Source: a virus
Virus record (IMG/VR): IMGVR_UViG_3300034069_000595
Coordinates: 27,478-91,477 of that record
Length of the DNA: 64,000 nt
Strand: one strand, 5' to 3'
The notes beneath the pieces are model-generated. The model had not been told where the DNA came from and made no database searches. It worked only from the letters and a program-made list of their open reading frames with translations. This document shows, in pieces, positions 7,081-29,362 of the stretch; the first letter of the stretch is position 1, and the number at the start of each line of letters is the position of its first letter. Made by a program: the position numbers and the translations under genes.

Positions 7081-7096
7081 GTCGTGACGGCACTAT
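7081..7096 (+). promoter_or_regulatory. Late promoter motif; predicted leaderless portal mRNA
   Basis: GTCGTGAC-GGC-A-CTA-T, 7 nt before ATG 7104; no SD. Confidence 0.75.
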
Positions 7097-7103
7097 CGCG
7101 GCT

Positions 7104-8744
7104 ATGACTGATATCGCCCTCGAAGTTGCGCACAACCCGAATGCTCCGAAAGATGAGCAGCAGGACGCTATGCGTATCGCGCAGAAAGCCGCGATGCCCT
7201 CGTCCGTCCCGGATATGCTCCCCCTTGTCCAGTACGTGGCCGAGCAGTACCGCGAGCAGGAGTTCGCCAAGTCGCTGTCGAAGCAGAACGTCATCCCCTT
7301 CCCGAGCCGCAGTGCCGAGATGGGCCAGATCGGTATGCAGTCGGTCTGGCTGGACGATCAGCGCACGAACATCCAGGGCGAATGGTACGAGCGGCCGACC
7401 GCATTCAGCTTCGACACCATGCGCACTATGGCGGATAACACCCCGATCCTGGCTTCGGTGATCATGACCCGGCAGCGCCAGATCAAGCGCTTCTGCCGCG
7501 CCAGCGCGGACGGCAAGGGGCCAGGTTTCCAGATCAAGCTGAAGGACGGCGGCGCCAAGGTTGGGGCCGAGGAGCAGAAGAACATTCAGCTCCTGCAGGG
7601 CTTCTTCACCAACTGCGGCTGGGAGAGCAAGCCACGCATCCGCCAACGCCTGCGCCGGGACAACTTCTCCGGCTTTATGGCGAAGCAGATCCGCGACAGC
7701 CTGATCATGGACAGCGCGCCGATCGAGATCGAGTGGAAGCGCGACAAGAGCAAGGGCATCGACGGCTTCTATGCCGTTGACGGCTCGACCATCAGGCTTT
7801 GCAACGAGGTTGGCTACCAGGGCGACGATGAGATCTACGCGCTCCAGGTGCTCGAAGGCCGCATTCGTGCCGCCTACACCTATGACGACCTGATCTACGT
7901 GCCTCGCAACCCGCGCTCCGATGTCCTGGCCGGCGGCTACGGCATGTCCGAGACCGAGCTGCTGATCAAGGTGGTGACGGGCTTCCTGAACGCTTTCACG
8001 TACAACACCAAATACTTCGACTCGAACGCCATCCCGAAGGGACTGTTGCACCTCACAGGCGACTACAGCCAGGAAGATCTGGCCGCGTTCAAGCGGCAGT
8101 GGAATGGGATGGTCAAAGGCATTAACAACGCCTGGACGATGCCGGTGATGGTCTCGAAGAACTCGGAGTCGAAAGTAGGTTTCGAAAACTTCAATGCCGA
8201 CGTGAACGAGATTATGTTCGGCAAGTGGATGACCTTCCTGACGTCAATCATCTGCGCCATTTACGGCATGGCGCCAGACGAAATCAACTTCGAAAGCTTC
8301 ACCACGGGTGCCAGTTCGCTCTCCGGAAGCGACACCGAGGAAAAGCTGATCAACTCGAAGGATAAGGGTCTACGCCCTCTCCTGTCCCACTACGAGGATC
8401 TGCTGAGCGACTACATCGTCGGGGAGTTTGGCGACAAGTACGTGTTCCGCTGGACCGGCCTCGACGAGAAGGATCCGAGTCAGCTCTGGGCTGAGGAAGT
8501 CGCCCTAAGCACCTGGAACGAAGGCCGAAAGGCGCGTGGCTGGGATGAGATCAAGGATGAGATCCTTGGCAATGCTCCGCTGAACCCGAACCTAATGGGC
8601 GTCTACATGCAGGCCAACATGCCTGATGCGGCGCCAGGTGACGATCAGGGTGACGGCGACGACAAGCCGCCGAAGCCGAAAAAGCCCGGCGATGACATGG
8701 CGAAGGCTTTCGGGCTGCCTCCCATCTACAAAGTCCAGCCGTAG
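7104..8744 (+). CDS. Phage portal protein
   Basis: HK97/Herelle-type portal features (VDGSTIR, RNPRSD..GYGMSETELL, F.SNAIPKGLL); first gene of the head module. Confidence 0.9.
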   Translation: MTDIALEVAHNPNAPKDEQQDAMRIAQKAAMPSSVPDMLPLVQYVAEQYREQEFAKSLSKQNVIPFPSRSAEMGQIGMQSVWLDDQRTNIQGEWYERPTAFSFDTMRTMADNTPILASVIMTRQRQIKRFCRASADGKGPGFQIKLKDGGAKVGAEEQKNIQLLQGFFTNCGWESKPRIRQRLRRDNFSGFMAKQIRDSLIMDSAPIEIEWKRDKSKGIDGFYAVDGSTIRLCNEVGYQGDDEIYALQVLEGRIRAAYTYDDLIYVPRNPRSDVLAGGYGMSETELLIKVVTGFLNAFTYNTKYFDSNAIPKGLLHLTGDYSQEDLAAFKRQWNGMVKGINNAWTMPVMVSKNSESKVGFENFNADVNEIMFGKWMTFLTSIICAIYGMAPDEINFESFTTGASSLSGSDTEEKLINSKDKGLRPLLSHYEDLLSDYIVGEFGDKYVFRWTGLDEKDPSQLWAEEVALSTWNEGRKARGWDEIKDEILGNAPLNPNLMGVYMQANMPDAAPGDDQGDGDDKPPKPKKPGDDMAKAFGLPPIYKVQP

Positions 8745-8776
8745 TCATCCGAACGTAAATTTCCAGCGAGGCAGAC

Positions 8777-9109
8777 ATGAGCGTCAAAATCAAAACCGTT
8801 ACAGGCCGGACTCAGGCGCAGGGCGTATTCGTCATTGCTCTCGACCGAAATCACTCATCCATCCAGATTGATGCCGAGACTTCCGCGAAGGCTCAAGGTG
8901 GAACGCTGAAGCTTCAGTTCGTCTCGCCAGGCATGTCGGTTGCGAAGGATTTTCTCGGCGCCACTGGATCCGCTGTTGTGATCGACCTAGCAAAACCTTA
9001 CCCAGTCGTATTCAAAGACCTTAGCGTAGATCAGCTAATCGTCACTCCGATCGGGTTCGATGCTGACAAGTCCTTCAGCGTTGGCATCGTACTCGGCGGG
9101 CAGCTCTGA
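8777..9109 (+). CDS. Small beta-sandwich virion protein
   Basis: ORF coupled to the downstream SGNH gene. Confidence 0.55.
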   Translation: MSVKIKTVTGRTQAQGVFVIALDRNHSSIQIDAETSAKAQGGTLKLQFVSPGMSVAKDFLGATGSAVVIDLAKPYPVVFKDLSVDQLIVTPIGFDADKSFSVGIVLGGQL

Positions 9110-10509
9110 TGGGTTTCGCTAATCAGCAGGCCTTTGGTGCGGACACGCCATTCGCCCTCAAACTGATCGCCGATGCGACGTCGGACCTCGGCACGGTCGG
9201 CGACTCGCGCATCGCTCAGCACTTCACCGGCACGGCACCGAACATCATCCGCGAGCACCGAGGCATTGCCTACTGGCTGGGCCTGCTCACGGATGGCGCC
9301 GTACAGGTCCAGCAGGCCTTCGCAGGTGGCGTCGGTGGTGACACCACTCCGATGTGCTTCGTGCGGACGCCAGCCCTGTCAGCGCTCAAATCTGGCACGG
9401 TCCTGTCGCGGTTCGGCACCAACGATCCGACCAGCTCGACCTACACCGCGAGCTGGACCGTGGACATGGCGATCGCAGCGTCGATCGAGTACATGACCGC
9501 CATCATCACCAACTTCCTCGACAACGGACACCCGGTTGTCCACGTCTCCCAGACCCCGCGTGGTGGCGTGGATGGCCCCGACAAGGAACTGACCGGCGAC
9601 AAGCTCAAGCACTTCCTCGGCATCCTGAATTGGGAGCTGAACGTGCTGCCGACGCTACGACTCGGGCGATATCAGCGTAGCGTGGATGGTGTCGGTAACG
9701 CCTGGAAGCTGTGGCTCGACCCAGCCTCAACGCCAGATCGCCCGCTGCCACTGCCAGGCCTGACCGTTGACGGGCTACACGACACCCACACGGGTGCCTT
9801 CCTGGCGACGCTGTCCGTGCTGCCGTTCTACAAGCGCCGCTACGCCACTAAGGCGCACTTGCCGAACACGCCATCTCGCAGCTTGGCCTATTCGAGCCTC
9901 GCCGCTACGCCTGTGCCGCTCGGCGTGCTGACCCGCAACCCGACTATGCTAGGCACCGCCGGCAACATTCCTGCGTCCGTGAACGCCCTGCCTAGCAGTG
10001 TGCTGCCCGATACCTGGAACGCGGTTGCCGCCAGCTTCACCGGTGTCAAAACCAAGTTCGATATCGTTGACACGCCGGCTGGCAAGGGCATCAAGGTGAC
10101 CTTCAGCGGTAACGCGACCACCGCAGGGGCTTACCTCTCGATCGAGCCAGCAGCGGTGGTTGCCCTGGCCGACGTCGTGGCAGGCGACAAGCTTGAGGCG
10201 ATCGGGTGGATGAAGGCCGAGGGCAAGCTGTCTGCCTGCCTGCAGGCGGCGCCGGAGATCCGCTTCGTCCGCGGCGGCACCACCTCCTATGTTCGCGACG
10301 GGAACAAGTACACCACCGTGGTGTGCCCGCTCCTGATGGATGCGTTCGTGGGCAGCGGTGTCTCCGGCGTAACGCGCACTCCAACACTGGCGGTCGATAA
10401 AACCGAAACCGAGATCAAGCAACGGTTCACGATCTACCTGCAAAACGGGGTCGATCTGAACTTCTCGGTGACCATTGCCGCACATGGAACGAGGAAGATC
10501 TATTCCTGA
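9109..10509 (+). CDS. SGNH/GDSL hydrolase with C-terminal beta domain (putative virion esterase)
   Basis: Block I GDS, block III GTND, block V DGLH. Confidence 0.75.
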   Translation: MGFANQQAFGADTPFALKLIADATSDLGTVGDSRIAQHFTGTAPNIIREHRGIAYWLGLLTDGAVQVQQAFAGGVGGDTTPMCFVRTPALSALKSGTVLSRFGTNDPTSSTYTASWTVDMAIAASIEYMTAIITNFLDNGHPVVHVSQTPRGGVDGPDKELTGDKLKHFLGILNWELNVLPTLRLGRYQRSVDGVGNAWKLWLDPASTPDRPLPLPGLTVDGLHDTHTGAFLATLSVLPFYKRRYATKAHLPNTPSRSLAYSSLAATPVPLGVLTRNPTMLGTAGNIPASVNALPSSVLPDTWNAVAASFTGVKTKFDIVDTPAGKGIKVTFSGNATTAGAYLSIEPAAVVALADVVAGDKLEAIGWMKAEGKLSACLQAAPEIRFVRGGTTSYVRDGNKYTTVVCPLLMDAFVGSGVSGVTRTPTLAVDKTETEIKQRFTIYLQNGVDLNFSVTIAAHGTRKIYS

Positions 10510-10516
10510 CGCCCAT

Positions 10517-10532
10517 GTCGTGACGTGAAGAT
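10517..10532 (+). promoter_or_regulatory. Late promoter motif
   Basis: GTCGTGAC-GTG-A-AGA-T. Confidence 0.7.
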
Positions 10533-10538
10533 TCAACT

Positions 10539-10788
10539 ATTCAAGCCCGTGTATTCCCTGAAGTCTGACAGGGCCGGTGGGGGCTAAGCCGCCGGATACT
10601 TTTCACCTTGCATCGCTCAAGGTGCTGCCATGGCAACATGGTGAGCCAGACAAAGCGGAGAGCGCAGCCCCTCTGTCCCTCGGGATAGTCGTAAGGGGGG
10701 AAGTCCGGATTGTCGGGCGGTGACCCCATACTCCCCGATGGGATCACCGCCCGGGGCGCATCCCTCCAACCTGATCTAGGATCTGGCA
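10539..10788 (+). ncRNA. Candidate structured ncRNA / long structured 5' leader
   Basis: At least seven helices including a GCAA tetraloop hairpin and a 10-bp GC stem; no convincing ORF; preceded by the late motif. Confidence 0.5.
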
Positions 10789-11943
10789 GTGTCCCTTCTC
10801 CTCGACATCACCCCTGTCAGTCAGCACGCTACCGACGCGGCTCTCGAATTCCTGTTCAAATCCACCCATGACCACGACAAGGGCATCTGGAACCCGCACG
10901 AGTCTGTGCTGATCCGGCGTCTGGTCGAGCTTTTCAGCGACCGCGGCCTCGATCGCCTCGAACACGTCAAACAGCAGATCATCGCGTGGGAGGCCGGTGA
11001 GCACCATAAGCCTGGCGCACCGGTGCCGACGAACGTTCCTGGCATGATGACGCGTTGGACCGAAGCCGAGCTTGGACTGGTCCGTGTCTACCTCGAAGCA
11101 CTCCCGCCAGGCGCATGGACCCTTGCCGACCACATGATGGCGGTCGACTACGTCGTGCAGCGTTACCTGCCGGCCGAGGAGATGAAGACCGAAGCCGAGT
11201 GGATGAGCACCCGAGCAGCGCTGATGGGCAAGGTGCAGGCCAACATGGCGGCCGCGGCCACCCCGCAGCAGGCGGACAAGATCCTCGCAGCCCTGCCTTC
11301 GACCGAAGCCGCGGCGAACCACCAGTTCAAGCTCAACGCGCAGCAGCAGTCGGTGATGGCGTTCGGCAACGCCCGGGCTGCCGAGAATGTGCGCGCCTTG
11401 GCCGAGGACGTTCGCCACCGGATGCGCAACACCATCATGCAGCACCTGGAGCAGCAGCAGACGTTGCCACCAGGCGTGCCCGGCGAGGCGCTACAGAGCA
11501 AGCTGGTCGATCAGTTCGGCACCCTGAACCGAGACTGGCGCAGGATCGCCGTCACTGAGGCTGGCGAGTGCCAGACACAGGGTTTCATCGCCAGCCTGAA
11601 GCCGGGCACGAAGGTCCGCCGCGTCGAGATGTACGCTACGGCGTGCAACTTCTGCAAAAAGATCCACGGCAAGATCGCTACCGTCGTCTCTCCGGACAAG
11701 CCCGATAAGGACTGGGAGAACGAGATATGGGTCGGCAAGAACAACATCGGCCGATCGGCATCGCCCCGCAAGCGCGTTGGCGATACGTTGGTCGATCGCG
11801 AGCCAGAGGAGATGTGGGCGCTTCCCGCCGGCCTGGCTCACCCACATTGCCGCGGGCGCTGGGTTCTGGTCGAAGAACTTGCTCAGGAAGGCGATGATCC
11901 CGACTTTGCGGCATGGCTTCGCGAGACGCTTGCCGGCGAATAG
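10789..11943 (+). CDS. Head morphogenesis protein, Mu gpF/SPP1 gp7-like
   Basis: RIAVTEAG, ACNFC and HPHCRG motifs; position between portal and protease. Confidence 0.8.
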   Translation: MSLLLDITPVSQHATDAALEFLFKSTHDHDKGIWNPHESVLIRRLVELFSDRGLDRLEHVKQQIIAWEAGEHHKPGAPVPTNVPGMMTRWTEAELGLVRVYLEALPPGAWTLADHMMAVDYVVQRYLPAEEMKTEAEWMSTRAALMGKVQANMAAAATPQQADKILAALPSTEAAANHQFKLNAQQQSVMAFGNARAAENVRALAEDVRHRMRNTIMQHLEQQQTLPPGVPGEALQSKLVDQFGTLNRDWRRIAVTEAGECQTQGFIASLKPGTKVRRVEMYATACNFCKKIHGKIATVVSPDKPDKDWENEIWVGKNNIGRSASPRKRVGDTLVDREPEEMWALPAGLAHPHCRGRWVLVEELAQEGDDPDFAAWLRETLAGE

Positions 11944-11980
11944 CTGCTATATTTGAGCAACCGCCTAACGAGTGCTCGCC

Positions 11981-12234: not shown

Positions 12235-12264
12235 AAAAAGCCGCCCTTCGAGGTGGCTTTTTTT
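12235..12264. terminator. Terminator
   Basis: aaaaagccgcc-cttcga-ggtggctttttt. Confidence 0.85.
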
Positions 12265-12289
12265 ATGCCTGCGGTTCGCCGCGCGAAGT

Positions 12290-12305
12290 GTCGTGACGGC
12301 ACTGT
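12290..12305 (+). promoter_or_regulatory. Late promoter motif; predicted leaderless protease mRNA
   Basis: GTCGTGAC-GGC-A-CTG-T; predicted +1 is the A of ATG 12312. Confidence 0.75.
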
Positions 12306-12311
12306 AGCGGC

Positions 12312-13196
12312 ATGAACCAAGACGAACAGCTTCTTGCTGACATCCCCGATTTCTTAAGCATCTCCGAGATGCTGAAAGCTACGCCTTCTGAGGAAGGTGG
12401 GGAGCGCTACATCTATCTGGAAGCCAGCAACGAGGGCGTCGACCAGCAGGGCGAGCGCGTTCTTGCCAAGGCACTGGAAGAAAGCGCGAGCCACTTCCTC
12501 AAGTTCGGCAACATCGACCTCGACCACTACACCATCATCGGTCAGCGGATGGGCCTGGCTAACCCCATGGCCTACGAGGTCGGCCGCCCGGTCGACGTGA
12601 CCGTTCGTGGTGATCGCACCTTCGTCAAGGCCCAGCTGTATCGCGGCACCGGCGAACTCGCGAAGAACGCGAACATGGTCTGGGAGTCGATGACTCAGAT
12701 CAGCCCGCCGGCGCGCTGGTATCCGTCCGTGGGCGGGTCAGTGCTGGCTAAGAGCGTGGCTGTTGACCCGAGCGGCGGCGGCAAGATCGGCGTCGTTACC
12801 AAGGTGCGCTGGACGAACATCGCCCTGAGCCGCACGCCGGTGAACCAACACCTGCCAGCTGCTGGCACTGTTCCCCTCGCCACGTTCGCCAAATCCTTCG
12901 GTGGCCTGGTGATGAACAAGTCCCTCGCTGCGGGCTACGGCTCCGACATGGCGACGCTGTTTGGTGGTGATGCGATCCGCATGCAGTCCCTGGATAGCAC
13001 ACCGCAAGGTTACTTCGAGTTTCGCGATGAGATCGCTGGCGCTGTCAGCAGTCGTGAAGCCAATAATCAGACCCGAGATGGTTTGATCGCGTTTTCAACG
13101 CACAAATTCAATCTGTCGGCTCCTGAAGCTGCGGAGTGGGTGGATCGCTTCCTGAGCGATTTGAAAAAACATCAATCTAACCGGAGCAATCCATGA
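12312..13196 (+). CDS. Prohead protease
   Basis: ASNEGVDQQGE, IDLDH, SVGG catalytic-Ser region, IALSRTPVN; canonical position. Confidence 0.85.
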   Translation: MNQDEQLLADIPDFLSISEMLKATPSEEGGERYIYLEASNEGVDQQGERVLAKALEESASHFLKFGNIDLDHYTIIGQRMGLANPMAYEVGRPVDVTVRGDRTFVKAQLYRGTGELAKNANMVWESMTQISPPARWYPSVGGSVLAKSVAVDPSGGGKIGVVTKVRWTNIALSRTPVNQHLPAAGTVPLATFAKSFGGLVMNKSLAAGYGSDMATLFGGDAIRMQSLDSTPQGYFEFRDEIAGAVSSREANNQTRDGLIAFSTHKFNLSAPEAAEWVDRFLSDLKKHQSNRSNP

Positions 13197-13852: not shown

Positions 13853-13867
13853 GCCCCGGAGGCATCG

Positions 13868-16028: not shown

Positions 16029-16059
16029 CCGCAGAACCAGTGCCGAGCTTCGGCGAACC

Positions 16060-16084
16060 AAAGGCCGCCTCGTGCGGCCTTTTT
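16060..16084 (+). terminator. Terminator ending the capsid operon
   Basis: aaaggccgc-ctcgt-gcggccttttt. Confidence 0.8.
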
Positions 16085-16093
16085 CATGAGTGA

Positions 16094-17191
16094 ATGACCA
16101 TGCCCACAATCGTAGCCGGCAGCCCGGCACAATTCGTCGTCAACGTGCAGCGCGATGGAAAACCTGTCCCGCTCGTTGGCGATGTCGCAATGCGCGTGCT
16201 CAGCATGGGCGGCCGGCAGACGCTGATCCAGCAGCGCACGCTGGACCCGGACCTGGCAGGCTCCGACTTCGCCAATGGGACCGTGGCGATCGAGCTGTCG
16301 GTTGAGGACACGAACAGCCTCCCGGGCGGTGACTCGCTGCTGGTGCTGTCCGGCGCCTTCGGCCTTCACCGCTTCAAGCTGTCCGTCGAGACGCTGTTCG
16401 AGGGAACGCGCAACTCGCTGTTCATTCGTGACCTGGTGATCGACGAGATCCGCGGTGACCGGCTGATGTCGGCCGCGGCCGGCGTCCTTCAGGGCATCAG
16501 CGTGTCAGATGACTATCTCTGGGAGAAGGTCAGGGCTGCGGAGTCGGAGATGTCCCACACGCTCCGCGTGCCGCTGGTCCCAACCCACTTCTTCGCGATC
16601 GACCCGACACCCGAGCAGATCGCCGAGCTGGATGGCATGGCCTGGGCGATCGACCCTGCCTACGACTACTCGCCCGATATGTTCCACGGCGAGAAGTGGG
16701 GCTTCATGATCACCCGCCAGCACCCGATCATCGACATTAAGCACCTGCGGTTCGCCTACCCAACGCCGGACAAGGGCTTCGTCGATATCCCCCACGACTG
16801 GATCCGCTACGACGCCAAATACGGCCACGTGCGCATCGTGCCGGCCTCGCCAGCCATTTTCCTACAGATGGACACCTTCATCATGACGGCCCTGACCGGT
16901 GGCCGATCGGTCCCATTCATGATGCAGCTCGAGTACACCGCCGGCCTGACCGACGTAGAGACCAACTTCCCCGAGCTGCTGGACGCCATCAAGAAAATGG
17001 CGGTGATGAAGATCGTGGGCGACGCCTTCCTCCCACAGTCGGGCTCGATCAGCGGAGACGGTCTGTCCGAGTCCATCTCGGTGGACCTGAGCAAGTACCA
17101 GGACATGGTCGATCACATCATCAACGGGCCGCCTGGCTCGAATGGCGGCCTGATGACCAAGATCAACGGCATTCGCATGCTGGTCATGTGA
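16094..17191 (+). CDS. Putative head-tail adaptor/neck protein
   Basis: Position; C-terminal Y.AG and SISGDGLSES motifs typical of adaptors. Confidence 0.55.
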   Translation: MTMPTIVAGSPAQFVVNVQRDGKPVPLVGDVAMRVLSMGGRQTLIQQRTLDPDLAGSDFANGTVAIELSVEDTNSLPGGDSLLVLSGAFGLHRFKLSVETLFEGTRNSLFIRDLVIDEIRGDRLMSAAAGVLQGISVSDDYLWEKVRAAESEMSHTLRVPLVPTHFFAIDPTPEQIAELDGMAWAIDPAYDYSPDMFHGEKWGFMITRQHPIIDIKHLRFAYPTPDKGFVDIPHDWIRYDAKYGHVRIVPASPAIFLQMDTFIMTALTGGRSVPFMMQLEYTAGLTDVETNFPELLDAIKKMAVMKIVGDAFLPQSGSISGDGLSESISVDLSKYQDMVDHIINGPPGSNGGLMTKINGIRMLVM

Positions 17192-17201: not shown

Positions 17202-17837
17202 ATGAGACTTAATCCAGGACACTTCAACCGCTTTCTCGGCAACATCGGCCAGCAGTTCCTATGGCGACGCGCCTACTCCTGCTCATGCTTCAATCCCGCA
17301 TCAGGAGCACCTGACACGAAGTGCACCTTCTGCCTTGGCAAGGGGCACCAGTGGGTTGAGCCCCTTCAGGCCTCTGCCGCATCGGCAGGGCAGAAGACGC
17401 AGGTCGCTTGGGCGCAGATGGGGCTGTACGAGCAGGGCGACATGGTCCTGACGGTTCCGGAGAATTCGCCGCTTTGGGATGCTGGCCAGTTCGACCGCGT
17501 GACCATGCTGAATGCTACCGATCGCTTCTCGATGCCGTTGACCCGTGGCGCTCCTACCGAAAAGGTCATGTTCACGGTCAAGAAAATCGATCGAGTGTTC
17601 TGGATTAATCAGAGCACGAAGTCGATCGTCGAGGGAGGCATTCCAACCATTGACGCGAACGGTCGCCCTGTGTGGACTGCAGGTGAACCGCCGCCAGGTA
17701 TGTCCTATTCGATATCAGGAACGCGCCTGTCGGAATATTTCATCTACATGGACCTGCCACGGAACCGGAACATGCACGATGGGGCGCGCCTGCCGAAACT
17801 GACGGTGCTGCGTCGCTGGGATCTGCTGGGGCGTTAG
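17202..17837 (+). CDS. Putative head-closure/neck protein
   Basis: WRRAYSCSC...CTFCLGKG metal motif; position. Confidence 0.5.
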   Translation: MRLNPGHFNRFLGNIGQQFLWRRAYSCSCFNPASGAPDTKCTFCLGKGHQWVEPLQASAASAGQKTQVAWAQMGLYEQGDMVLTVPENSPLWDAGQFDRVTMLNATDRFSMPLTRGAPTEKVMFTVKKIDRVFWINQSTKSIVEGGIPTIDANGRPVWTAGEPPPGMSYSISGTRLSEYFIYMDLPRNRNMHDGARLPKLTVLRRWDLLGR

Positions 17838-18691
17838 GACTTCTTCGCCAGCGTCCGCTTGATCGCCTCGGCGAAAGCGGCGTTGGCCTTGGGTTGGATG
17901 GCGTCTACGGTCTTCTTCGCCAGGAACAGGCCTGGCTGCGGAGGGATAACCCAGCCGGCCGAGCCCTCGATCATGATCCGGAACGTCAGGAACGCCGAGG
18001 ACTTCGCGCCACCTGGTGTGCTGGTGTCGAAGCGGTGCATGCCGGCCGCCCACTTCCGCGCCGCAGGGCTGATGCCCGCCTCCTTCATCGCGGTCTTCTT
18101 CAGCCGATCGCCCCACGCGTAGTTGTTCTTCGGCACCATCAGCGCCTGCTTCGTTTTCGGGTTCGACAAGAACGGCGTTTGGCTTTTGGACGGCGACATG
18201 CCCGACGTAGGCGACAGGTGGGTCACCTCTCCGCTCGGACGCTCACCCTGGCCGAGGATGGTCGAGGCGTTCAGCTCGGAGGCCATGCCGTAGACCCCGG
18301 CGTCTTCGAGCTTCTTCACGTTGTGGCGCATCGGGATCACCAGGAACCGGCGCCCGTCCTCTGTCCTTCGCACCTTCACGCTCGTGCCGAGCATCTTCTT
18401 GAGGTCGCGCGCCGGCCTGCCGCTCTCGATCTCCTGCGCGTAGCGGTAGTCCGACTCCACCAACGCGGTGAAATCGCCCGTCATCGACCACTTGATCGTT
18501 TTGGCGTAGGCGTCCTTTTCGCCCGACCAGAGCTTCGCCTGGTAGACGTTCGCCTGCCAGTTCGAGGCCGTTTGAGCGGCAACAGCCCTCACCGCCTGAT
18601 TGAGCAGCGGGAAGACTTGCTTGTTCACAATGCCTTGGACGTCGAGCGTGCTGCCGAGGTCAAAGCTGAATTTGATATTGAGGTCTGCCAT
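17834..18691 (-). CDS. Putative neck/tail-completion protein on the opposite strand
   Basis: Natural-looking ORF (YAQEIESG...DLKKML, RFLVIP); own late motif; position among neck genes. Confidence 0.6.
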   Translation of the reverse strand: MADLNIKFSFDLGSTLDVQGIVNKQVFPLLNQAVRAVAAQTASNWQANVYQAKLWSGEKDAYAKTIKWSMTGDFTALVESDYRYAQEIESGRPARDLKKMLGTSVKVRRTEDGRRFLVIPMRHNVKKLEDAGVYGMASELNASTILGQGERPSGEVTHLSPTSGMSPSKSQTPFLSNPKTKQALMVPKNNYAWGDRLKKTAMKEAGISPAARKWAAGMHRFDTSTPGGAKSSAFLTFRIMIEGSAGWVIPPQPGLFLAKKTVDAIQPKANAAFAEAIKRTLAKKS

Positions 18692-18698: not shown

Positions 18699-18746
18699 AG
18701 CATCGCGTCACGAGGGAGCGCCGACAAACCGTCGTGACGCCATCAT
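18699..18746. promoter_or_regulatory. Back-to-back divergent late promoters
   Basis: CTCGTGAC-GCG-A-TGC-T (minus, 18699-18714) and GTCGTGAC-GCC-A-TCA-T (plus, 18731-18746). Confidence 0.75.
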
Positions 18747-18752: not shown

Positions 18753-19577
18753 ATGATCTCAATTATCCGGCCGCTTCCGATCGGCAACGCGCTTCGAATC
18801 TTCGTCGAGCCCCCAGCAGGCGCGAAGTATTGGCGCGTCCTGCGCAAAGCCTCCGACACATTCGATGGTGGTCCGGACGATGACTACGCCCTGAAGGTCT
18901 ACGAGGGCGATGAGAAGTCGTTCGTGGATGCCGCCTCGCTGCCGAATGAGCAGATGGCGTTCTACAAGCCGTTCTACCGGATCGGCTCGGCATGGGTTCC
19001 TGGCGAAACAGGCTATGGAACGCCGGCCTCCACCTTCGAAGACCACAGCACAGATGTGATCGCCATTCTGCGCAGTCGCCTTGAGGCTGGCATGCGGGTC
19101 GAGTGTGAGCGCGGCAACTTCGCAACCGAGCTGGGCTACATCCAGGTGTTCACCGCGCCCCCCTCGCTGGGCAACGTCGAGCTGCCGGTAGTCACCGTCG
19201 AGCTGGACCATGCCGGCCCCGGCGATCGCGCGATCGGTGAGGACATCATCGGAGATGAGTTCGACGATGACGGCTGGATGGATTCCGAAGGCTGGCTGGA
19301 GAACGTCACCGCCACCATCGTGGCCTGGTCGCTGAACAGCGATGAGCGCATCGAGCTGAGAAAGGCGTTGCGCCGCATCCTTCTGGCGAATCTGCCGGTC
19401 CTCAATGACGCTGGTGTCCAGCAAGTAAGCTTCAGCTTTACAGATATGAATGCAGTCGGCGGCGAGTTTGACGCCCCGATGTACCAGGTCATCTGCAATT
19501 TCTCATGTATCGCACCAGCTCGCGTCAGTGGCCGCGTCGGTTCGATCGAGGATGTCGAGGTCACCGTTCGCGACTGA
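18753..19577 (+). CDS. Putative tail terminator / tail completion protein
   Basis: Position before the sheath; LPVVTVEL..., SLNSDERIELR pattern. Confidence 0.5.
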   Translation: MISIIRPLPIGNALRIFVEPPAGAKYWRVLRKASDTFDGGPDDDYALKVYEGDEKSFVDAASLPNEQMAFYKPFYRIGSAWVPGETGYGTPASTFEDHSTDVIAILRSRLEAGMRVECERGNFATELGYIQVFTAPPSLGNVELPVVTVELDHAGPGDRAIGEDIIGDEFDDDGWMDSEGWLENVTATIVAWSLNSDERIELRKALRRILLANLPVLNDAGVQQVSFSFTDMNAVGGEFDAPMYQVICNFSCIAPARVSGRVGSIEDVEVTVRD

Positions 19578-22106: not shown

Positions 22107-22126
22107 CCGCCCCGACAGCAACACCG

Positions 22127-22168
22127 GAAAGCCCGCCTCGCGCGGGCTTTCTGTCGTGACGGGACAAT
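22127..22168 (+). promoter_or_regulatory. Terminator (22127-22151) directly followed by late promoter motif (22153-22168)
   Basis: gaaagcccgc-ctcgc-gcgggctttc then GTCGTGAC-GGG-A-CAA-T. Confidence 0.75.
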
Positions 22169-22203
22169 GGCTGAACAAGCCCATTCCCTGACCGAGAGCT
22201 GTT

Positions 22204-22587
22204 ATGACCAACGAGCAACGCGAGCTTCGCGCCCCCTCAACCTCCGACTTCCATCTCGACGTTGAGGGCGTCGGCACCTTCGTTTTCGCTCGGCGCACCA
22301 TGCGCGACGAGCTGCGGATCTCCGCCGAATACTCCCGCCTGACAGAGGGCGTGCTGACCCCGACCCCTTACCTCGACACCGTTGCCGGCTGGATGGCGAC
22401 GCTGAAGGTGCTGACCGTCAAGTGCCCGCACAACTGGGATCCAGAGACCATGGACCCGTTTGATACGGACACCGAGGAGAAAATCCTTAAGGTCTACGGT
22501 GCACTCCGCGTCAAGGAGGGCTCTTTTCGCAAAAAACCGCAAGTGGACAGCCAAGCAGAACGGCCGGGAACTGTCCCAGACGCTTAG
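22204..22587 (+). CDS. Tail assembly chaperone (G-like)
   Basis: Position between the tube and tape measure genes. Confidence 0.75.
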   Translation: MTNEQRELRAPSTSDFHLDVEGVGTFVFARRTMRDELRISAEYSRLTEGVLTPTPYLDTVAGWMATLKVLTVKCPHNWDPETMDPFDTDTEEKILKVYGALRVKEGSFRKKPQVDSQAERPGTVPDA

Positions 22588-25800: not shown

Positions 25801-25911
25801 CACAGCGTTGCGGTCGATGTCACCATGCGCGATCAATCCGGTAACCGCATCGAAGATGCGCAAATCAATACAACTGTCGGCAAGCCTGTCGCCAGTGGAG
25901 TACCCCAATGA
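22861..25911 (+). CDS. Tape measure protein with C-terminal lytic transglycosylase (SLT) domain
   Basis: 1016 aa, Ala/Gly-rich; MMQESSFN...GARGLHQLMP and SYHGG SLT motifs. Confidence 0.88.
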   Translation: MTGIKIPVSAELNQQDIQAQIKQLETALNDLGTVAQNAGKVRFSPITKTTVDDVKRIRAEFDAMVRMAPGLKRALEAGGQGGKKFDTVDWGKVWSDPNQRAGHAATMLKRFKPGSAEILVPPAEKVPPTTPPTPTPSGGGGSRRRRRRPASEEGEDDTPPSAGGRWKRAAAGGIAGIAGGVASQLGGVAGGVATGALSGGLAGGPIGAAVGGLAGAITSLLGSIGEARDIAISLDTLKRTLGDTNVSFSKLQDNTHRLADEFSLTDAEAIGLTKNYSNLSGHDKDLPGLRDEVGVGVGFSRSFGLDPSAGVGFFGQMRGMGITGSADDNKKLALLIGESVAKAGDLPRLGDVLAGLTRYMEGAARTSLTAPNSAAWLSRFAGLEKSGLAGMDPTTASSIIGSIDGSIRQGGLSEAGKNFMSGALQKDQGLNPIQAAIQLEGGAFGSGRSTFGPNSPMSRFYSRFGGGSPLSSWSSDESNVSVLQRNLTKQYGNKSPDLMLDAFKNTFGTSYGQSAAWLATDPEQNDSMLKRMQRLGLNWKDVNASGVSKLSQIESDGSLSDEQKDQMVRETASKNQEDTIGSEARRASIDGSNAMVRLAAEGLPMLSSIQAGVLKLAGLDPMGPQKAKLKEEHEANLQAIAADQGAVRDKAVEAYKAITPWAKRATGLGLTEEQAKAKEAADIAGGNLRTAERAENDRYDTAVSDLDKKTGPARSPTPGTSTKPPEAARQMDKQQQKLLAENDAKHQTALSKIKSEQGVAMAEAVRDAYKIMTPEQLKSGGPDLSDDQLFAKDRFDAAKDDYDSAIAEANGSWSSKREQLTAPPSPGTSSQPVASGLPGKASGVTPELLARAAESDRKAGLPEGTTAGLMMQESSFNSGAVSSAGARGLHQLMPANVNTFSQRVGRRLDPTNTDDSFYMYDELMKERKSKYGGNTDKMLKSYHGGYDEDQWGPVNADYVPAIERRKREMAAAGQTVQQMQHSVAVDVTMRDQSGNRIEDAQINTTVGKPVASGVPQ

Positions 25912-27410
25912 AGATGTCGGTTCACCAACCGCGCATTGAGGTCTCGCTGTTTAAGACCATCAAGCGCAGCACCACGAACGGGACTGAGCCGACGTCGTCG
26001 CGCTTCCAAGGCACCAAGCCCATCATCTCGCTGGGCCCATGGCTTGGCGAAGGGTCTTCGGTCAGCACGTCCAAAAACATCAACGCGGGAGCTGGTGGCT
26101 TCTCAATCACGCTGGTCGATAAGCCATACGACCGGGACGGGCTCGACAGCCTGTACGGGATCATCGAGCCGATGGACATCGTCACCATCCGTTTCCGGCA
26201 CGGAATGAACCCCACTGACGGCGATACGAGCATGCCGATCGTCATGCGCGGATTTGTATCGAACGTTTCCCGCAGCGAAAACATGTCGCCAGACGGAAAG
26301 CCTCAACGCACCGTGACCATTCAGGGTCAGGACTACGGGAAAATCTGGCAGATGCTCCAGATCTTCTACGGCCCGAACTACATCACCGGGGAGGACATCC
26401 TGTCGGCGTTCAAGCTGATGGATAAGTTCGGCGCCGGCTTCAAGGTTGCTCTGACCAATGTCGAATTCCTGAAGATCGCGATCGAGCAGATCGTCAACCC
26501 GTTCCTGAAACGACTGCTGCCTGATGGCGGGTATCTCCCGCAGATCACCCTCGACACGTCGCACGTTGTCGAGGCGGCTGTGGGTATCGCCGGCATCCAA
26601 TCTGCGGAGGGCAACATCTATGACCTGCTGCGCAGATACCTCGACACGGGGCCGTTCAACGAGCTGTTCCTGATGGATGACGAGGATACGGTTCGGTGCG
26701 TGTATCGGCAGAACCCGGCCTTGGGCCTGGACGCCTTACCGCTCGCGCCAAAGGTCACTGATGCTCCGAGTACCGATCGGGCTAAGGGCCGGGATGATGC
26801 CTCAGTGCTGACGCTCATCACCCTGAAGGATGAGGACATTCTGGGCATTGACGTGCAGCGCTCGGACTCGAACGTTGCCAACTATTACTGGGTCGCTGCG
26901 CCCGCGTTCAGCCTGAACAGCGACGTCCTGCAGCGGCAGATGGGGTACAGTGCGGCGGATCGCGCATCCACGGACCTGTCGGCCTACGACAACTGCGCCT
27001 CGAAGCTCTACGGCATGCGCCTCATGTGGCTGAACACCAGCCTCGGCGGCAAGGTGACCAACGTCAAATCCGGCCTCACAGAAGCCGAGCACGACCGCCG
27101 GGATGGCGACCTGAACGAGTGGATCCGCGATCGACGCGAGTTCGTGGTGGCCCAGAACCGGGACAACAGCATCCTGGAGCGCGGCTCGATCCGGATCTCC
27201 GGCAACGAAGGCATTCGCGCAGGCAACTACGTCCAGGTGGTGCGTGGTCGGTTCAAGTCGATCTACTACGTCGTGCAGGTTTCCCACCAGGTGATCCCTT
27301 TCCGCGGCATTTACACAACACTCCTGGTCGAGCGCGGGCTTGGCTTCGCAGACAGGATCAAAATGGGCGGCGGCGTCGACTCGCCTTACCTGAGCGAGTT
27401 GGCACGATGA
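25908..27410 (+). CDS. Baseplate hub protein
   Basis: Position after the TMP; TIQGQDYGKI motif. Confidence 0.65.
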   Translation: MKMSVHQPRIEVSLFKTIKRSTTNGTEPTSSRFQGTKPIISLGPWLGEGSSVSTSKNINAGAGGFSITLVDKPYDRDGLDSLYGIIEPMDIVTIRFRHGMNPTDGDTSMPIVMRGFVSNVSRSENMSPDGKPQRTVTIQGQDYGKIWQMLQIFYGPNYITGEDILSAFKLMDKFGAGFKVALTNVEFLKIAIEQIVNPFLKRLLPDGGYLPQITLDTSHVVEAAVGIAGIQSAEGNIYDLLRRYLDTGPFNELFLMDDEDTVRCVYRQNPALGLDALPLAPKVTDAPSTDRAKGRDDASVLTLITLKDEDILGIDVQRSDSNVANYYWVAAPAFSLNSDVLQRQMGYSAADRASTDLSAYDNCASKLYGMRLMWLNTSLGGKVTNVKSGLTEAEHDRRDGDLNEWIRDRREFVVAQNRDNSILERGSIRISGNEGIRAGNYVQVVRGRFKSIYYVVQVSHQVIPFRGIYTTLLVERGLGFADRIKMGGGVDSPYLSELAR

Positions 27411-28183
27411 GCGAGTTCAAGAAGGGGCGCGTTGTCGCCATCCACCCAGAAGATCACTCCTGCGATATCGTCATGCTGGGCGATGGCTCGCGCCTGGCCG
27501 GCGTGCAGATCCAGTCCCAGTCGGCCAGCACCAATACGGGCCTAAACGACCTGGTGGCTCCGGCTGCTGCGCCAGACGGCAATAAGTGGAACGCCAGCCA
27601 GAAGACTGGCCGCGATATCCTTGCCATCGTCGGGTGGTGCGAGGGCGTGCCGTTCGTGAACGGCTTCCTGTTCCCGCAAATCTGCCAGATGACCTTCCCC
27701 GAGGCGAACCGGAAGATCGATCGACACGCTTCGGACTTCTACCAAACGATCGATGCCAAGGGTAACGTCGAGTGGTCTCACCCGAGCGGCACCTACCTGC
27801 GCATTGGCGAGAGCCCTGCGCACGAGGATCTGACCGGCAAGGACTTCGACAAGAAGTGGGCCATCAAGAACAACACCGGGACGGCGCCGCACGTGCACCT
27901 GACGGTGGCCAGTGCCGGTTCGGTCGTCGCTACAATCGATATCGCACCATCTGGAGCCATCACGGTGACGGGCGCATCGCTGATGGCGACGCTCACCGGG
28001 GCAGCCACCTTGATCGCGCCTGGTGGGGTCACCGTCGATACGCCAGACGCGCACTTCACCGGCAACATCAAGGCCGATGGCAATATCACCGACCTGGTGC
28101 GCAGCATGGCGGCGGATCGCCTGATCTACAACAGCCACACCAACCCGAACGGCGGCAGCAGCGCGCCTCCGCAGCAGATGTGA
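27407..28183 (+). CDS. Baseplate spike (gpV/gp45-like)
   Basis: OB-fold N-terminus (KGRVVAIHPEDHSCDI), beta-helix repeats, C-terminal YNSHTN; ATGA overlap. Confidence 0.8.
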   Translation: MSEFKKGRVVAIHPEDHSCDIVMLGDGSRLAGVQIQSQSASTNTGLNDLVAPAAAPDGNKWNASQKTGRDILAIVGWCEGVPFVNGFLFPQICQMTFPEANRKIDRHASDFYQTIDAKGNVEWSHPSGTYLRIGESPAHEDLTGKDFDKKWAIKNNTGTAPHVHLTVASAGSVVATIDIAPSGAITVTGASLMATLTGAATLIAPGGVTVDTPDAHFTGNIKADGNITDLVRSMAADRLIYNSHTNPNGGSSAPPQQM

Positions 28184-28185
28184 TC

Positions 28186-28201
28186 GTCGTGACGCCATCA
28201 T
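28186..28201 (+). promoter_or_regulatory. Late promoter motif; predicted leaderless mRNA
   Basis: GTCGTGAC-GCC-A-TCA-T; predicted +1 is the A of ATG 28208. Confidence 0.75.
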
Positions 28202-28207
28202 GGCGTC

Positions 28208-29362
28208 ATGGACCTATCTACGCCTGCATCTCAGAAAGCCGAGGAGTGTCCCATCACCTTTGTGATGGATGACGACTCCGCCGGCACGTCCGAAGAAATG
28301 ACCCTCCTGATCCGTCCGGAGGAGCTTTCGATCGGGTTCCCAAGCCGCCTGTCTGTGAACCAGACGCTGGGCGGCGCGTGGGCGGACAGCTTCGGCGAAG
28401 GGCTTGAGGAGGGAACCTTCTCGGGCACCCTCGGGTGGCGCGCCACCAGCAACGACAGCGGCGGCACTGAGCGCCTGGTGAACCTGAAGAACTTCGCCTA
28501 CTCCGACTGGCATGCACGGCGAGCAGCTGCGGTGGCAAAGGGCAACGACCCGGCCATGGTGCGCTTGCAGCTGGTGGACACGCTGAACAACTACTCGCGG
28601 GTCATCGCGCCCCGGGTGTTCGAGCTGAAGCGCAGCAAGAGCCGGCCGCTGCTGGCGCAGTACCGGTTCAACTTCGTCATGCTGTCGCGCGACCTGACGG
28701 GCAAGGATCTGCTCCAGTCGGACAGCGCGCTCGGCGGCTTCCTCGGCACCATCGGCTCGTGGATCGACAGCTTTACCACCTCGATCAACAACATCACCGA
28801 CCGCATTCGGACCGCGTACCGCTGGATCGATAAGACCATCATCACGCCGGTCAAAGCCTTCGTGGCGAAAACGATGCAGATCTACAAAGCCGTCAACAAC
28901 CTGGTCACCGCGGGCGTCGGGATCATTCGGCAGGTCGGCAGCATTGCGACACTGGCTACCTCCGCAATTACGAACGTGCTGCGAACCGCTGCGCTGGCAG
29001 TCAACATCCCCAACATCGCCAAGGCGGCGATCATGAACGTCGTGCGTGAGTACACCAACATCTTCTGTCTGCTGCGCAACGCCCGCGGCCTGCTGAGCTA
29101 CGAGGATTATTCGGACATCTACGGCGCCTCGAACTGCTCCTCGACGTCGGGTGGTCGCTCGATCTCGATCTACTCAGGATCGACCAACAACACGTTTGCC
29201 GCCATCTCGAAGCAGGACGCCTCGCCGATCGTGGTCACTCAGGGCGCATCGAACAGCCTCAAATCACTCGCCAGCGCGGACCTGGTCACCACCAGCCTGT
29301 CCTCGACCACGATCAACGGAAACCTCTCGGTAGCGAACGCCGGTATCACGGTGACCGCATGA
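28208..29362 (+). CDS. Baseplate/tube-initiator protein
   Basis: LLIRPEEL...QTLGGAWADSFGEG motif of tube-initiator-type proteins. Confidence 0.6.
   Translation: MDLSTPASQKAEECPITFVMDDDSAGTSEEMTLLIRPEELSIGFPSRLSVNQTLGGAWADSFGEGLEEGTFSGTLGWRATSNDSGGTERLVNLKNFAYSDWHARRAAAVAKGNDPAMVRLQLVDTLNNYSRVIAPRVFELKRSKSRPLLAQYRFNFVMLSRDLTGKDLLQSDSALGGFLGTIGSWIDSFTTSINNITDRIRTAYRWIDKTIITPVKAFVAKTMQIYKAVNNLVTAGVGIIRQVGSIATLATSAITNVLRTAALAVNIPNIAKAAIMNVVREYTNIFCLLRNARGLLSYEDYSDIYGASNCSSTSGGRSISIYSGSTNNTFAAISKQDASPIVVTQGASNSLKSLASADLVTTSLSSTTINGNLSVANAGITVTA

What the first reader, a model, noticed from the sequence alone, without database searches (positions are those of the whole stretch)
7081..28210. Five structural genes predicted to be translated from leaderless mRNAs
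Taking the conserved T as -7, the predicted +1 falls on the A of the start codon for the protease (12312), 18753 and 28208 genes. It falls one base before the ATG for the portal (7104) and the inverted neck gene (18691). None of these five has a Shine-Dalgarno sequence. Leaderless initiation is rare in Gammaproteobacteria (lambda cI is the classic case) and commoner in Alphaproteobacteria and Actinobacteria. It may set the low stoichiometry of portal and protease, or let late mRNAs escape host or phage translation shut-off (inference).
Basis: partly seen in the sequence, partly recalled or inferred. Interest (0 to 1): 0.8.

Follow-up and report, generated by a model that had tools for sequence, protein, structure and literature searches.

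The report
Leaderless late genes in a phage
Five virion genes of this ~94-kb temperate phage start 6-7 bases after the -10 element of a conserved phage late promoter, so their messages should begin at the AUG with no ribosome-binding leader; the same layout holds across a wide phage clade, but no RNA 5' end has been mapped.

Summary
The window is part of a 93.6-kb IMG/VR phage related to Pseudomonas phages Touem01 and Dolphis and Bordetella phage PHB04.

A motif, GTCGTGAYG-n-cAnnaT, occurs 16 times in the genome against about 1 expected. At 7104, 12312, 18691(-), 18753 and 28208 an ATG lies 6-7 nt after the motif's last T, and none has a Shine-Dalgarno sequence.

The A and T of the -10-like part are conserved without being required by the search (90% and 91% of 149 copies). 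There is no -35 element, and C(-1)/A(+1) is preferred.

The motif-to-ATG spacing is kept at the orthologous genes:
- portal: 29 of 30 phage or IMG/VR loci and 14 of 15 prophages in Alpha-, Beta- and Gammaproteobacteria;
- protease: 13 of 13;
- 18753 gene: 7 of 7;
- 18691 gene: 7 of 7;
- 28208 gene: 10 of 10.

All 126 ORFs opening at this position start with ATG, never GTG or TTG.

Enterobacterial relatives keep the box but insert SD-containing leaders for portal, protease and the 18691 homologue. This marks the motif as a promoter, not a translation element.

No sigma, phage RNA polymerase or P1 Lpa homologue was found, and no usable RNA data exist. Leaderless translation is therefore a strong, untested prediction.

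The scan had already noted the same GTCGTGAY box on other genomes. The functional ideas (stoichiometry, escape from shut-off) remain inference.

The parts
7081..7096 (+). Late promoter of the portal gene: box GTCGTGACG 7081-7089, -10-like CACTAT 7091-7096. Predicted +1 is 7103 or 7104.
   Evidence: Box and spacing are conserved in 29 of 30 phage or IMG/VR loci and 14 of 15 prophages.
7104..8744 (+). Portal gene (546 aa). The ATG lies 7 nt after T(-7), with no SD (-2.1 kcal/mol).
   Evidence: Pfam Phage_portal E=1.2e-17. The N-terminus MTD..A is conserved from the first codon.
12235..12265 (+). Intrinsic terminator hairpin with a T-run, 24 nt upstream of the protease promoter box.
   Evidence: Fold -23 kcal/mol, z -2.9. 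The same terminator-then-box layout is seen in Touem01, Dolphis, PHB04 and IMG/VR relatives.
12290..12305 (+). Late promoter of the protease gene: box 12290-12298, -10-like CACTGT 12300-12305. Predicted +1 is 12312.
   Evidence: 13 of 13 orthologous loci keep the box and an in-frame ATG at 5-7 nt.
12312..13196 (+). Prohead protease homologue (294 aa), named from the annotations of relatives. The ATG is at predicted +1, with no SD (-2.4).
   Evidence: Annotated as capsid or head maturation protease in Dolphis, ST4, PHB04 and Yen8-01. No Pfam hit.
17834..18691 (-). The ATG at 18691 lies 7 nt after T(-7), with no SD.
   Evidence: phrog_16819. The upstream in-frame TTG at 18727 lies beyond the box, and relatives differ by a 2-nt indel there, so it is not coding. 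7 of 7 orthologues keep the box and ATG (four were scored by eye because the box starts with A).
18699..18714 (-). Late promoter of the minus-strand gene: box CTCGTGACG 18714-18706, -10-like GATGCT 18704-18699. Predicted +1 is 18692 or 18691.
18731..18746 (+). Late promoter of the 18753 gene: box 18731-18739, -10-like CATCAT 18741-18746. Predicted +1 is 18753. It lies back to back with the minus-strand promoter in a 61-bp intergenic region.
18753..19577 (+). Gene of 274 aa, annotated 'head-to-tail adaptor' in Dolphis and ST4. The ATG is at predicted +1, with no SD. It is the only one of the five that stays leaderless in the enterobacterial relatives as well.
   Evidence: annotation; 7 of 7; ECML-606-1, Yen8-01, Mecenats66.
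28186..28201 (+). Late promoter of the 28208 gene: box 28186-28194, -10-like CATCAT 28196-28201. Predicted +1 is 28208. It starts 2 nt after the stop codon of the upstream gene.
28208..29362 (+). Tail-tube-initiator or baseplate-hub-like gene (384 aa). The ATG is at predicted +1, with no SD at this ATG.
   Evidence: Pfam Phage_tail_tube_init E=7.8e-9. The N-terminus MDL(S/T)TPASQKA is conserved, with synonymous changes, in 8 relatives, and a diverged N-terminus (MFTSAPSSQKA) follows the box in PHB04; counting Dolphis, all 10 carry the box and an ATG 5-6 nt after T(-7).
22153..22204 (+). For contrast, the same promoter with a 29-nt leader before ATG 22204. A terminator abuts the box at 22125-22152.
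32203..32246 (+). For contrast, the same promoter with a 21-nt leader that carries a GGAG SD before ATG 32246.
6016..6062 (-). For contrast, the same promoter on the minus strand (box 6062-6054) with a 24-nt leader carrying GAGG before ATG 6016. A terminator lies just upstream at about 6070-6098.

Best explanation
GTCGTGAYG-n-cAnnaT is the late promoter of this phage clade. It has a sigma-70-type -10 element (A-11, A-8, T-7), no -35 element, and a phage-specific 8-9-bp box at -22 to -14. The box is presumably read by host RNA polymerase together with an unidentified phage factor.

At five transcription units the ATG lies where this promoter should start RNA synthesis, 6-7 nt after T(-7) and preceded by a pyrimidine. 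The mRNAs for portal, protease, the 18691 gene, the 18753 gene and the 28208 gene would then begin with AUG or have a 1-nt leader. They would be translated by the leaderless pathway, in which a 70S ribosome or fMet-tRNA complex binds a 5'-terminal AUG without SD pairing.

Shown here: the motif, its statistics, its conservation, the true start codons and the absence of an SD.
Inferred: the exact 5' end, the polymerase form and the translation pathway.

The leaderless genes are first in their units and encode low-copy parts. The high-copy capsid and tube genes downstream have strong SDs. Setting low translation yields is therefore the most plausible role, though this is inference.
For: - Motif count is 16 against 0.98 expected.
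- Five of 13 copies carry ATG at +1 or +2, P=7e-6.
- When only GTCGTGAY is searched, A-11 is present in 90% and T-7 in 91% of 149 copies. Nothing upstream of -23 is conserved, and C(-1) and A(+1) are preferred (64% and 66%; 60% and 61% when only the box is searched).
- Across 153 copies the distance from T(-7) to the ATG peaks sharply: 70 at 6 nt, 17 at 7 nt, 3 at 5 nt.
- Orthologous genes keep the box and an in-frame ATG: portal 29/30 and 14/15, protease 13/13, 18753 gene 7/7, 18691 gene 7/7, 28208 gene 10/10. GC content ranges from 38% to 70%, and the 6-7 nt between T(-7) and ATG vary freely.
- 126 of 126 ORFs (80 codons or more) opening at this position use ATG, against roughly 64% ATG among SD-led starts.
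- Terminators lie directly upstream of the boxes at 12290, 22153 and 6062(-).
- The 18691/18753 pair shares a 61-bp intergenic region made up of two back-to-back promoters.
- Other copies of the same motif have 21-30-nt leaders, several with an SD.
- E. coli phage ECML-606-1, Yersinia phage Yen8-01 and Morganella phage Mecenats66 keep the box but insert SD leaders for portal, protease and the 18691 homologue.
- The first 45 nt of the five mRNAs fold weakly (mean -5.9 against -9.7 kcal/mol for all ORFs).
- Precedent: late mRNAs of Thermus phages YS40 and Lalka27a are leaderless (bioRxiv 10.64898/2026.04.20.719267).
Against: - No RNA 5' end is available. Two run searches and one read lay gave nothing usable.
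- The factor that reads the box is unknown. No sigma r2 or r4_2 domain, T7-type polymerase or Lpa was detected. The assumption that start-site geometry follows sigma-70 rules is therefore unverified.
- -12 is C, not T, and the box position matches no described element.
- In P. aeruginosa only 55 of 2,187 TSSs are leaderless (PMC8244752), so efficient leaderless translation in a Pseudomonas-like host is not a given.
- The host of this phage is unknown.
Confidence: 0.75

Rival explanations
1. The motif is a promoter, but transcription starts several bases earlier. This could happen if the GTCGTGAY box itself acts as the melting element for a divergent phage sigma-like factor. The result would be 6-9-nt leaders without an SD rather than true leaderless mRNAs.
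For: The box is the most invariant part of the motif. No known factor was found, so non-canonical geometry cannot be excluded. The box lies closer to the -10 element than in any described class.
Against: - A-11 and T-7 are conserved at about 90% without being required by the search, and C(-1)/A(+1) is preferred.
- The ATG is locked to 6-7 nt after T(-7).
- ATG is used exclusively, 126 of 126, which is expected for a 5'-terminal AUG but not for a short leader.
- In ECML-606-1 the 18691 homologue's GGAGG begins at predicted +2. This fits either start and does not favour the rival.
Confidence: 0.13
2. The motif is an RNA-level element, such as a translational operator or SD substitute, inside leaders of transcripts that start further upstream.
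For: The spacing to the ATG is fixed at five genes. The 28208 box lies inside a co-directional gene array and could be co-transcribed.
Against: - Intrinsic terminators lie directly upstream of three copies.
- The divergent pair leaves only 61 bp.
- Other copies lie 21-37 nt from their ATG with an ordinary SD in between.
- Enterobacterial relatives insert SD leaders between the motif and the ATG.
- The sequence pattern is that of a -10 element, and the motif forms no conserved hairpin.
Confidence: 0.05
3. The start codons are mis-set. The proteins really begin at downstream in-frame starts with SDs, and the ATG next to the motif is coincidental.
For: GenBank annotators chose downstream starts for several orthologues: Dolphis gp15 and gp25, PHB04 gp14, ST4 portal and gp71, Yen8-01 portal. 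A GTG at +54 of the 28208 gene has an SD-like GAGGAG.
Against: - Protein conservation starts at the first codon, with synonymous third-position changes, in all five genes.
- The ATG is kept in frame in 70 or more orthologous loci.
- No in-frame alternative with a good SD exists within 80 codons for portal, protease, the 18691 gene or the 18753 gene (best -2.9 to -4.2 kcal/mol).
Confidence: 0.03

Closest known systems
Bacteriophage P1 late promoters (LP; '-22 box' plus -10, activated by Lpa with host SspA)
   Same: Both have a sigma-70-like -10 hexamer, no -35 element, and a conserved roughly 9-bp box with a GTGAY core just upstream of the -10. Both occur many times in front of the late operons of a temperate myophage of about 94 kb.
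   Different: The P1 box is AAGTGAYTT, 4 bp from the hexamer. Here the box is GTCGTGAYG, 1 bp from it, so it lies 3-4 bp closer. No Lpa homologue was found by protein search or by Pfam PF25716. Among the ORFs called here, only the SSB matched the part of P1 that was searched (bases 1-50,000 plus the lpa region). The six P1 late promoters read here are followed by at least 19 nt before any ATG, so their genes are not leaderless.
Leaderless middle and late mRNAs of Thermus phages phiYS40 and Lalka27a
   Same: These are phage late promoters with a distinctive -10 region and no -35 element. The A or G of the start codon is the 5' end of most transcripts (bioRxiv 10.64898/2026.04.20.719267). A short stretch of capsid-gene nucleotide similarity to the Lalka phages exists.
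   Different: The motif differs (TAGGGT plus C at -25). The host phylum is one where leaderless mRNAs are the norm. In Thermus the 5' ends were mapped; here they are only predicted. Here only a defined subset of late genes is leaderless.
Lambda cI mRNA from PRM, the classic proteobacterial leaderless message (own knowledge)
   Same: A 5'-terminal AUG, no SD, and a temperate phage of a proteobacterium.
   Different: That is a single regulatory gene expressed in the lysogen, not a conserved set of virion genes under a dedicated late promoter.
Sigma-70 extended -10 (TGn) promoters
   Same: No -35 element, with extra conserved bases upstream of the -10.
   Different: Here TG lies at -18/-17, not -15/-14, and the conserved element is 8-9 bp long.

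Membership tests
Leaderless mRNA (class) | Transcript 5' end at the start codon, or within a few nt of it | not testable with these tools
   No RNA run holds the sequence in usable form. This is predicted from promoter geometry only.
Leaderless mRNA (class) | No Shine-Dalgarno sequence upstream of the start | tested here: met
   Pairing energies are -2.1 to -3.1 kcal/mol, against a median of -6.4. The upstream 22 nt are occupied by the promoter.
Leaderless mRNA (class) | -10 element placed so that +1 falls on the start codon | tested here: met
   T(-7) lies 6-7 nt before the A of the ATG at all five genes. The same holds at 90 of 153 motif copies in relatives.
Leaderless mRNA (class) | The start codon is AUG. 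The need for a 5'-terminal AUG in proteobacteria is from my own knowledge. | tested here: met
   126 of 126 are ATG, with no GTG or TTG.
P1 Lpa-dependent late promoters | -10 hexamer without a -35 element | tested here: met
   No conservation upstream of -23. A-11, A-8 and T-7 are conserved.
P1 Lpa-dependent late promoters | 9-bp box AAGTGAYTT, 4 bp upstream of the hexamer | tested here: not met
   Six annotated P1 late promoters were read. Here the box is GTCGTGAYG and lies 1 bp from the hexamer. Only the GTGAY core is shared.
P1 Lpa-dependent late promoters | The phage encodes Lpa (Pfam PF25716) | tested here: not met
   No match in the whole 93.6-kb genome to the P1 Lpa protein or to PF25716 at E<=10. 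A divergent analogue cannot be excluded.
P1 Lpa-dependent late promoters | Dependence on host SspA | not testable with these tools
   This needs genetics or in vitro transcription.
Promoters of a phage-encoded sigma factor or single-subunit RNA polymerase | The phage encodes a sigma-70-family protein or a T7-type RNA polymerase | tested here: inconclusive
   No hit to Sigma70_r2, Sigma70_r4_2 or RNA_pol (PF00940). The PF00940 control matched nothing anywhere, and a gp55-like minimal sigma would escape these models.
Extended -10 promoters | TG at -15/-14 | tested here: not met
   -15 is C or T and -14 is mostly G. TG is at -18/-17.

The most novel reading that the evidence does not exclude
The gene-specific leaderless design, kept across a phage clade spanning Alpha-, Beta- and Gammaproteobacteria, could be part of an active translational programme. 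Late in infection the phage would change the host translation or transcription machinery so that 5'-AUG messages are favoured or protected while SD-led host messages are shut down. Candidate tools would be its large virion-associated ADP-ribosyltransferase-like protein, its DksA-like zinc-finger protein or an unknown box-binding factor. The box-binding factor would be a new kind of RNA-polymerase specificity factor acting at -22 to -14.
Probability: 0.12. Interest if true: 0.8.

Novelty: new variant of a known kind. Interest (0 to 1): 0.55.

Why it matters
If the 5' ends map as predicted, this is a large, culturable group of proteobacterial phages whose key virion genes are expressed from leaderless mRNAs. 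The group includes phages of Pseudomonas, Bordetella and Aeromonas and many prophages of Alpha- and Betaproteobacteria. In their hosts such messages are a small minority: 55 of 2,187 TSSs in P. aeruginosa (PMC8244752).

The group offers a natural comparison. Enterobacterial members carry the same promoter but have SD leaders on three of the genes.

It also points to an undescribed promoter-specificity element at -22 to -14 whose reader is unknown.

There is a practical consequence. Gene callers mis-place these starts: at least six GenBank annotations in relatives are truncated by 3 to about 75 codons.

Tried and rejected
- **RNA evidence.** Two searches of public runs and one read lay gave only DNA-like contigs and spurious short matches from one metatranscriptome. 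No 5' ends were obtained.
- **Reader of the box.**
  - No sigma r2 or r4_2 domain, T7-type polymerase or Lpa was found.
  - Pfam and PHROGs scans of conserved non-structural proteins gave only an AraC-family regulator (genome 8735-9607), a DksA-like zinc-finger protein (window 39137-39421, minus strand) and DNA methylases.
  - Atlas look-ups of two small conserved proteins were uninformative.
  - No candidate is supported.
- **Sixth 'leaderless' case.** The case at genome 1321-1343 was rejected because its motif overlaps a strong GGGAGG SD before a methylase gene.
- **Conserved hairpin before the ATG.** A perfect 8-bp palindrome exists only at 28190-28206 and is not shared by the other sites, so this was rejected.
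- **Sigma-54, RpoH, ECF and FliA-type readings.** These were considered by eye and rejected because spacing and key bases do not fit (own knowledge).
- **Consensus terminator scan.** It missed the obvious terminators, so these were folded directly instead.
- **Literature.** Searches found no paper describing this promoter or leaderless genes in this clade.


Full report
**What the window is.** The window is bases 27,478-91,477 of a 93,589-bp IMG/VR phage record with 61.7% GC. Its nearest cultured relatives are listed here:
- Pseudomonas phage Touem01, at 76.6% nucleotide identity over the head module;
- Pseudomonas phages Dolphis and Jeremy;
- Aeromonas phage ST4;
- Bordetella phage PHB04;
- more distantly, E. 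coli phage ECML-606-1, Yersinia phage fHe-Yen8-01 and Morganella phage Mecenats66.

All are myophages of about 86-96 kb, and those examined encode an integrase. Prophage relatives of the portal gene occur in the following hosts:
- Alphaproteobacteria: Microvirga, Mesorhizobium, Geminicoccus, Azospirillum, Novacetimonas, Phenylobacterium;
- Betaproteobacteria: Caballeronia, Paraburkholderia, Nitrosomonas;
- a Gammaproteobacterium: Methylomarinum.

The host of this phage is not known.

**Check of the observation.** The sequences upstream of the five starts are as described. A box, GTCGTGACG (CTCGTGACG on the minus strand), is followed by N2-A-N3-T and then by 6 or 7 nt before the ATG. With the last T as -7, +1 is the A of the ATG at 12312, 18753 and 28208. 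At 7104 and 18691(-) it is the base before the ATG.

Anti-SD pairing upstream of these starts is -2.1 to -3.1 kcal/mol. The median for the best start of all ORFs is -6.4. The values are -9.5 for the capsid gene, -11.4 for the 17202 gene and -12.7 for the tail tube gene.

The motif TCGTGAY-N3-A-N3-T occurs 16 times in the genome against 0.98 expected, with a maximum of 5 in 100 simulations. The chance that 5 of 13 copies carry ATG at these two offsets is 7e-6.

**Is the motif a promoter?**
- *Sequence pattern.* I searched 149 non-identical copies of GTCGTGAY in this genome and its relatives without requiring anything downstream. A is present at -11 in 90% and T at -7 in 91%. A is favoured at -8, C at -12 and G at -14. 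Nothing is conserved upstream of -23. C is preferred at -1 and A at +1 (64% and 66% in the 143 copies; 60% and 61% here). This is the signature of a sigma-70-type -10 element and start site with an extra upstream box and no -35.
- *Terminators.* Strong intrinsic terminators lie directly upstream of the boxes at 12290, 22153 and 6062(-). The same terminator-then-box layout precedes the protease gene in Touem01, Dolphis, PHB04 and several IMG/VR relatives.
- *Divergent pair.* The 18691(-) and 18753(+) genes are divergent and only 61 bp apart. That interval consists of two back-to-back copies of the motif.
- *Leadered copies.* Other copies of the same motif lie 21-37 nt from their ATG, several with an ordinary SD in between (32203, 6062-, 6757-, 22153, 36718). 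The motif therefore does not need to abut a start codon.
[quoted passage not shown] The one exception (50584) lies inside the SSB gene, has N4 rather than N3 spacing to the -10-like part, and is conserved there in relatives.

**Are the start codons right?** For each gene the ATG next to the motif is conserved in frame in every orthologue examined. Protein similarity starts at codon 1, and the differences there are largely synonymous.

| Gene | Loci with box and in-frame ATG 5-7 nt after T(-7) |
|---|---|
| Portal | 29 of 30 phage or IMG/VR loci; 14 of 15 prophages (GC 38-70%) |
| Protease | 13 of 13 |
| 18753 gene | 7 of 7 |
| 18691 gene | 7 of 7 (four scored by eye; their box begins with A) |
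| 28208 gene | 10 of 10 |

The 6-7 nt between T(-7) and the ATG vary freely between relatives, and none resembles an SD. The in-frame TTG at 18727 lies beyond the box. It is not preserved either, because relatives differ by a 2-nt indel in between. No in-frame alternative start with a good SD exists near the 5' end of four of the genes. The GTG at +54 of the 28208 gene is ruled out by conservation of the first 18 codons.

**Two further signatures of leaderless initiation.**
- Among 261 non-identical motif copies, 126 open an ORF of at least 80 codons 5-7 nt after T(-7). All 126 start with ATG and none with GTG or TTG. About a third of SD-led starts in this genome are GTG or TTG by a crude call.
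- The first 45 nt of the five predicted mRNAs are less GC-rich and fold weakly, with a mean of -5.9 against -9.7 kcal/mol for all ORFs.

**A natural comparison.** In the enterobacterial relatives the promoter box is kept, but the junction differs.
- *Portal.* It has a leader of about 23 nt in ECML-606-1 and about 36 nt in Yen8-01, with a purine-rich SD-like stretch (AAAGG in ECML-606-1; weaker in Yen8-01).
- *Protease.* In both phages the predicted +1 carries ATG-TTT-TGA, a two-codon ORF. AAAGGG follows, and the real ATG lies 22 nt downstream in another frame.
- *18691 homologue.* It has an 11-nt leader that begins with GGAGG.
- *28208 homologue.* It is SD-led and has no promoter.
- *18753 homologue.* It remains leaderless in all three phages.

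This pattern shows that the box works upstream of an SD and at variable distance from the ATG, as a promoter would. It also suggests that the leaderless junction was replaced in hosts where such messages are poorly translated. That last point probably rests on a single evolutionary event and is inference.

**How it most likely works.** Host RNA polymerase with its primary sigma recognises the A-11/T-7 element. The box at -22 to -14 supplies late specificity through an unidentified phage factor. A temperate phage cannot leave its virion promoters constitutively on, so some such factor is expected. Transcription would start at the A of the ATG or one base before it, and the message would be translated without SD pairing.

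The leaderless genes are the first gene of their unit and encode low-copy parts: portal, protease, a connector-region protein and a tube-initiator or hub-like protein (and relatives' annotations). The capsid, tube and other abundant proteins further down the units have the strongest SDs. I found nothing that bears on escape from shut-off.

**The factor.** The genome gave no match to Sigma70_r2, Sigma70_r4_2 or T7-type RNA polymerase. Proteins conserved with Dolphis and PHB04 include the following:
- an AraC-family regulator;
- a DksA-like zinc-finger protein next to the integrase;
- several DNA methylases;
- a 1,261-aa protein that relatives annotate as an ADP-ribosyltransferase.

None can be tied to the box.

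**Comparison with what is known.** Earlier notes of this scan on other genomes had already seen the GTCGTGAY box. They named P1 late promoters as the closest known system, so I tested that.
- The six annotated P1 late promoters read AAGTGAYTT-N4-TAnnnT. They share the GTGAY core and the overall design of a box plus a -10 with no -35.
- The P1 box lies 3-4 bp further from the -10 than the box here.
- In the six promoters read, the nearest ATG lies at least 19 nt beyond the -10 hexamer, so P1 late genes are not leaderless.
- This phage has no Lpa homologue by protein search or by Pfam PF25716.
- Among the ORFs called here, only the SSB matched the part of P1 that was searched (bases 1-50,000 plus the lpa region).

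This phage therefore works like P1's late promoters but is not a member of that system.

Leaderless late messages are documented for Thermus phages YS40 and Lalka27a, with a different motif and in a host phylum where leaderless mRNAs are common. In P. aeruginosa only 55 of 2,187 mapped TSSs are leaderless, and phage phiKZ has none (PMC8244752). I found no paper describing this promoter or leaderless genes in the Dolphis/PHB04 group.

**Verdict.** The leaderless reading is the best explanation, at about 0.75, but it rests on sequence and comparative evidence only. It is a new variant of known kinds (P1-like late promoter design, Thermus-phage-like leaderless late genes). It is not a new principle, and this scan has met the same box before on other DNA.

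Noticed in passing
L010 (Dolphis) gp15 and gp25; L011 (PHB04) gp14; L044 (ST4) portal ST4_092 and ST4_071; L045 (Yen8-01) portal: GenBank start codons of these orthologues are set 3 to about 75 codons too far downstream. The conserved N-terminus starts at an ATG right after the promoter box, or after a short leader in Yen8-01. Gene callers seem to miss SD-less starts.
   Followed up: partly
L042:23132-23176 (ECML-606-1) and L045:3726-3770 (Yen8-01): At the protease promoter of the two enterobacterial phages, the predicted +1 carries ATG-TTT-TGA, a two-codon ORF. AAAGGG follows, and the real protease ATG lies 22 nt downstream in another frame. This may be a relic of the leaderless start or a ribosome-loading mini-ORF.
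   Followed up: no
window 10539-10565 and 22175-22195: The transcripts predicted from the promoters at 10517 and 22153 both begin with CAAGCCC ... ATTCCCTGA. The CAAGCC part is also kept after the box in Touem01 and IMG/VR relatives. It may be a shared 5' leader element. The 10517 unit has about 250 nt with no ATG before the GTG at 10789.
   Followed up: no
window 35285-35305 and 36082-36105: The leaders downstream of the promoter copies at 35268 and 36066 share GCTGCAATCCG(C/T)AG. This looks like a second conserved leader motif.
   Followed up: no
window 39383-39435 (minus strand): A variant box (GGCGTGAC-N3-AGAAT) is followed within about 10 nt by a GC-rich hairpin and a T-run, in front of the DksA-like zinc-finger gene next to the integrase. 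It could be an attenuator or a very short transcript.
   Followed up: no
window 16040-16094: The 16094 gene (head-to-tail adaptor homologue) has neither an SD nor a promoter box. A terminator-like hairpin with a T-run ends 9 nt before its ATG. How this gene is expressed is unclear.
   Followed up: no
G000 genome 1320-1345 (L066): A perfect copy of the motif overlaps a GGGAGG SD in front of a DNA methylase gene (N6_N4_Mtase). It mimics the leaderless spacing but has a strong SD.
   Followed up: yes
G000 genome 8735-9607 and 14903-18688 (L066); window 39137-39421 (minus strand): Three conserved non-structural proteins might act on transcription or translation: an AraC-family regulator, a 1,261-aa protein that relatives annotate as an ADP-ribosyltransferase, and a DksA-like zinc-finger protein.
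   Followed up: partly
L046-L062 (genome contigs): Prophage relatives with the same portal promoter-ATG junction occur in Alphaproteobacteria (Microvirga, Mesorhizobium, Geminicoccus, Azospirillum, Novacetimonas, Phenylobacterium), Betaproteobacteria (Caballeronia, Paraburkholderia, Nitrosomonas) and a Methylomarinum MAG with 38% GC. The clade's host range is very wide.
   Followed up: partly
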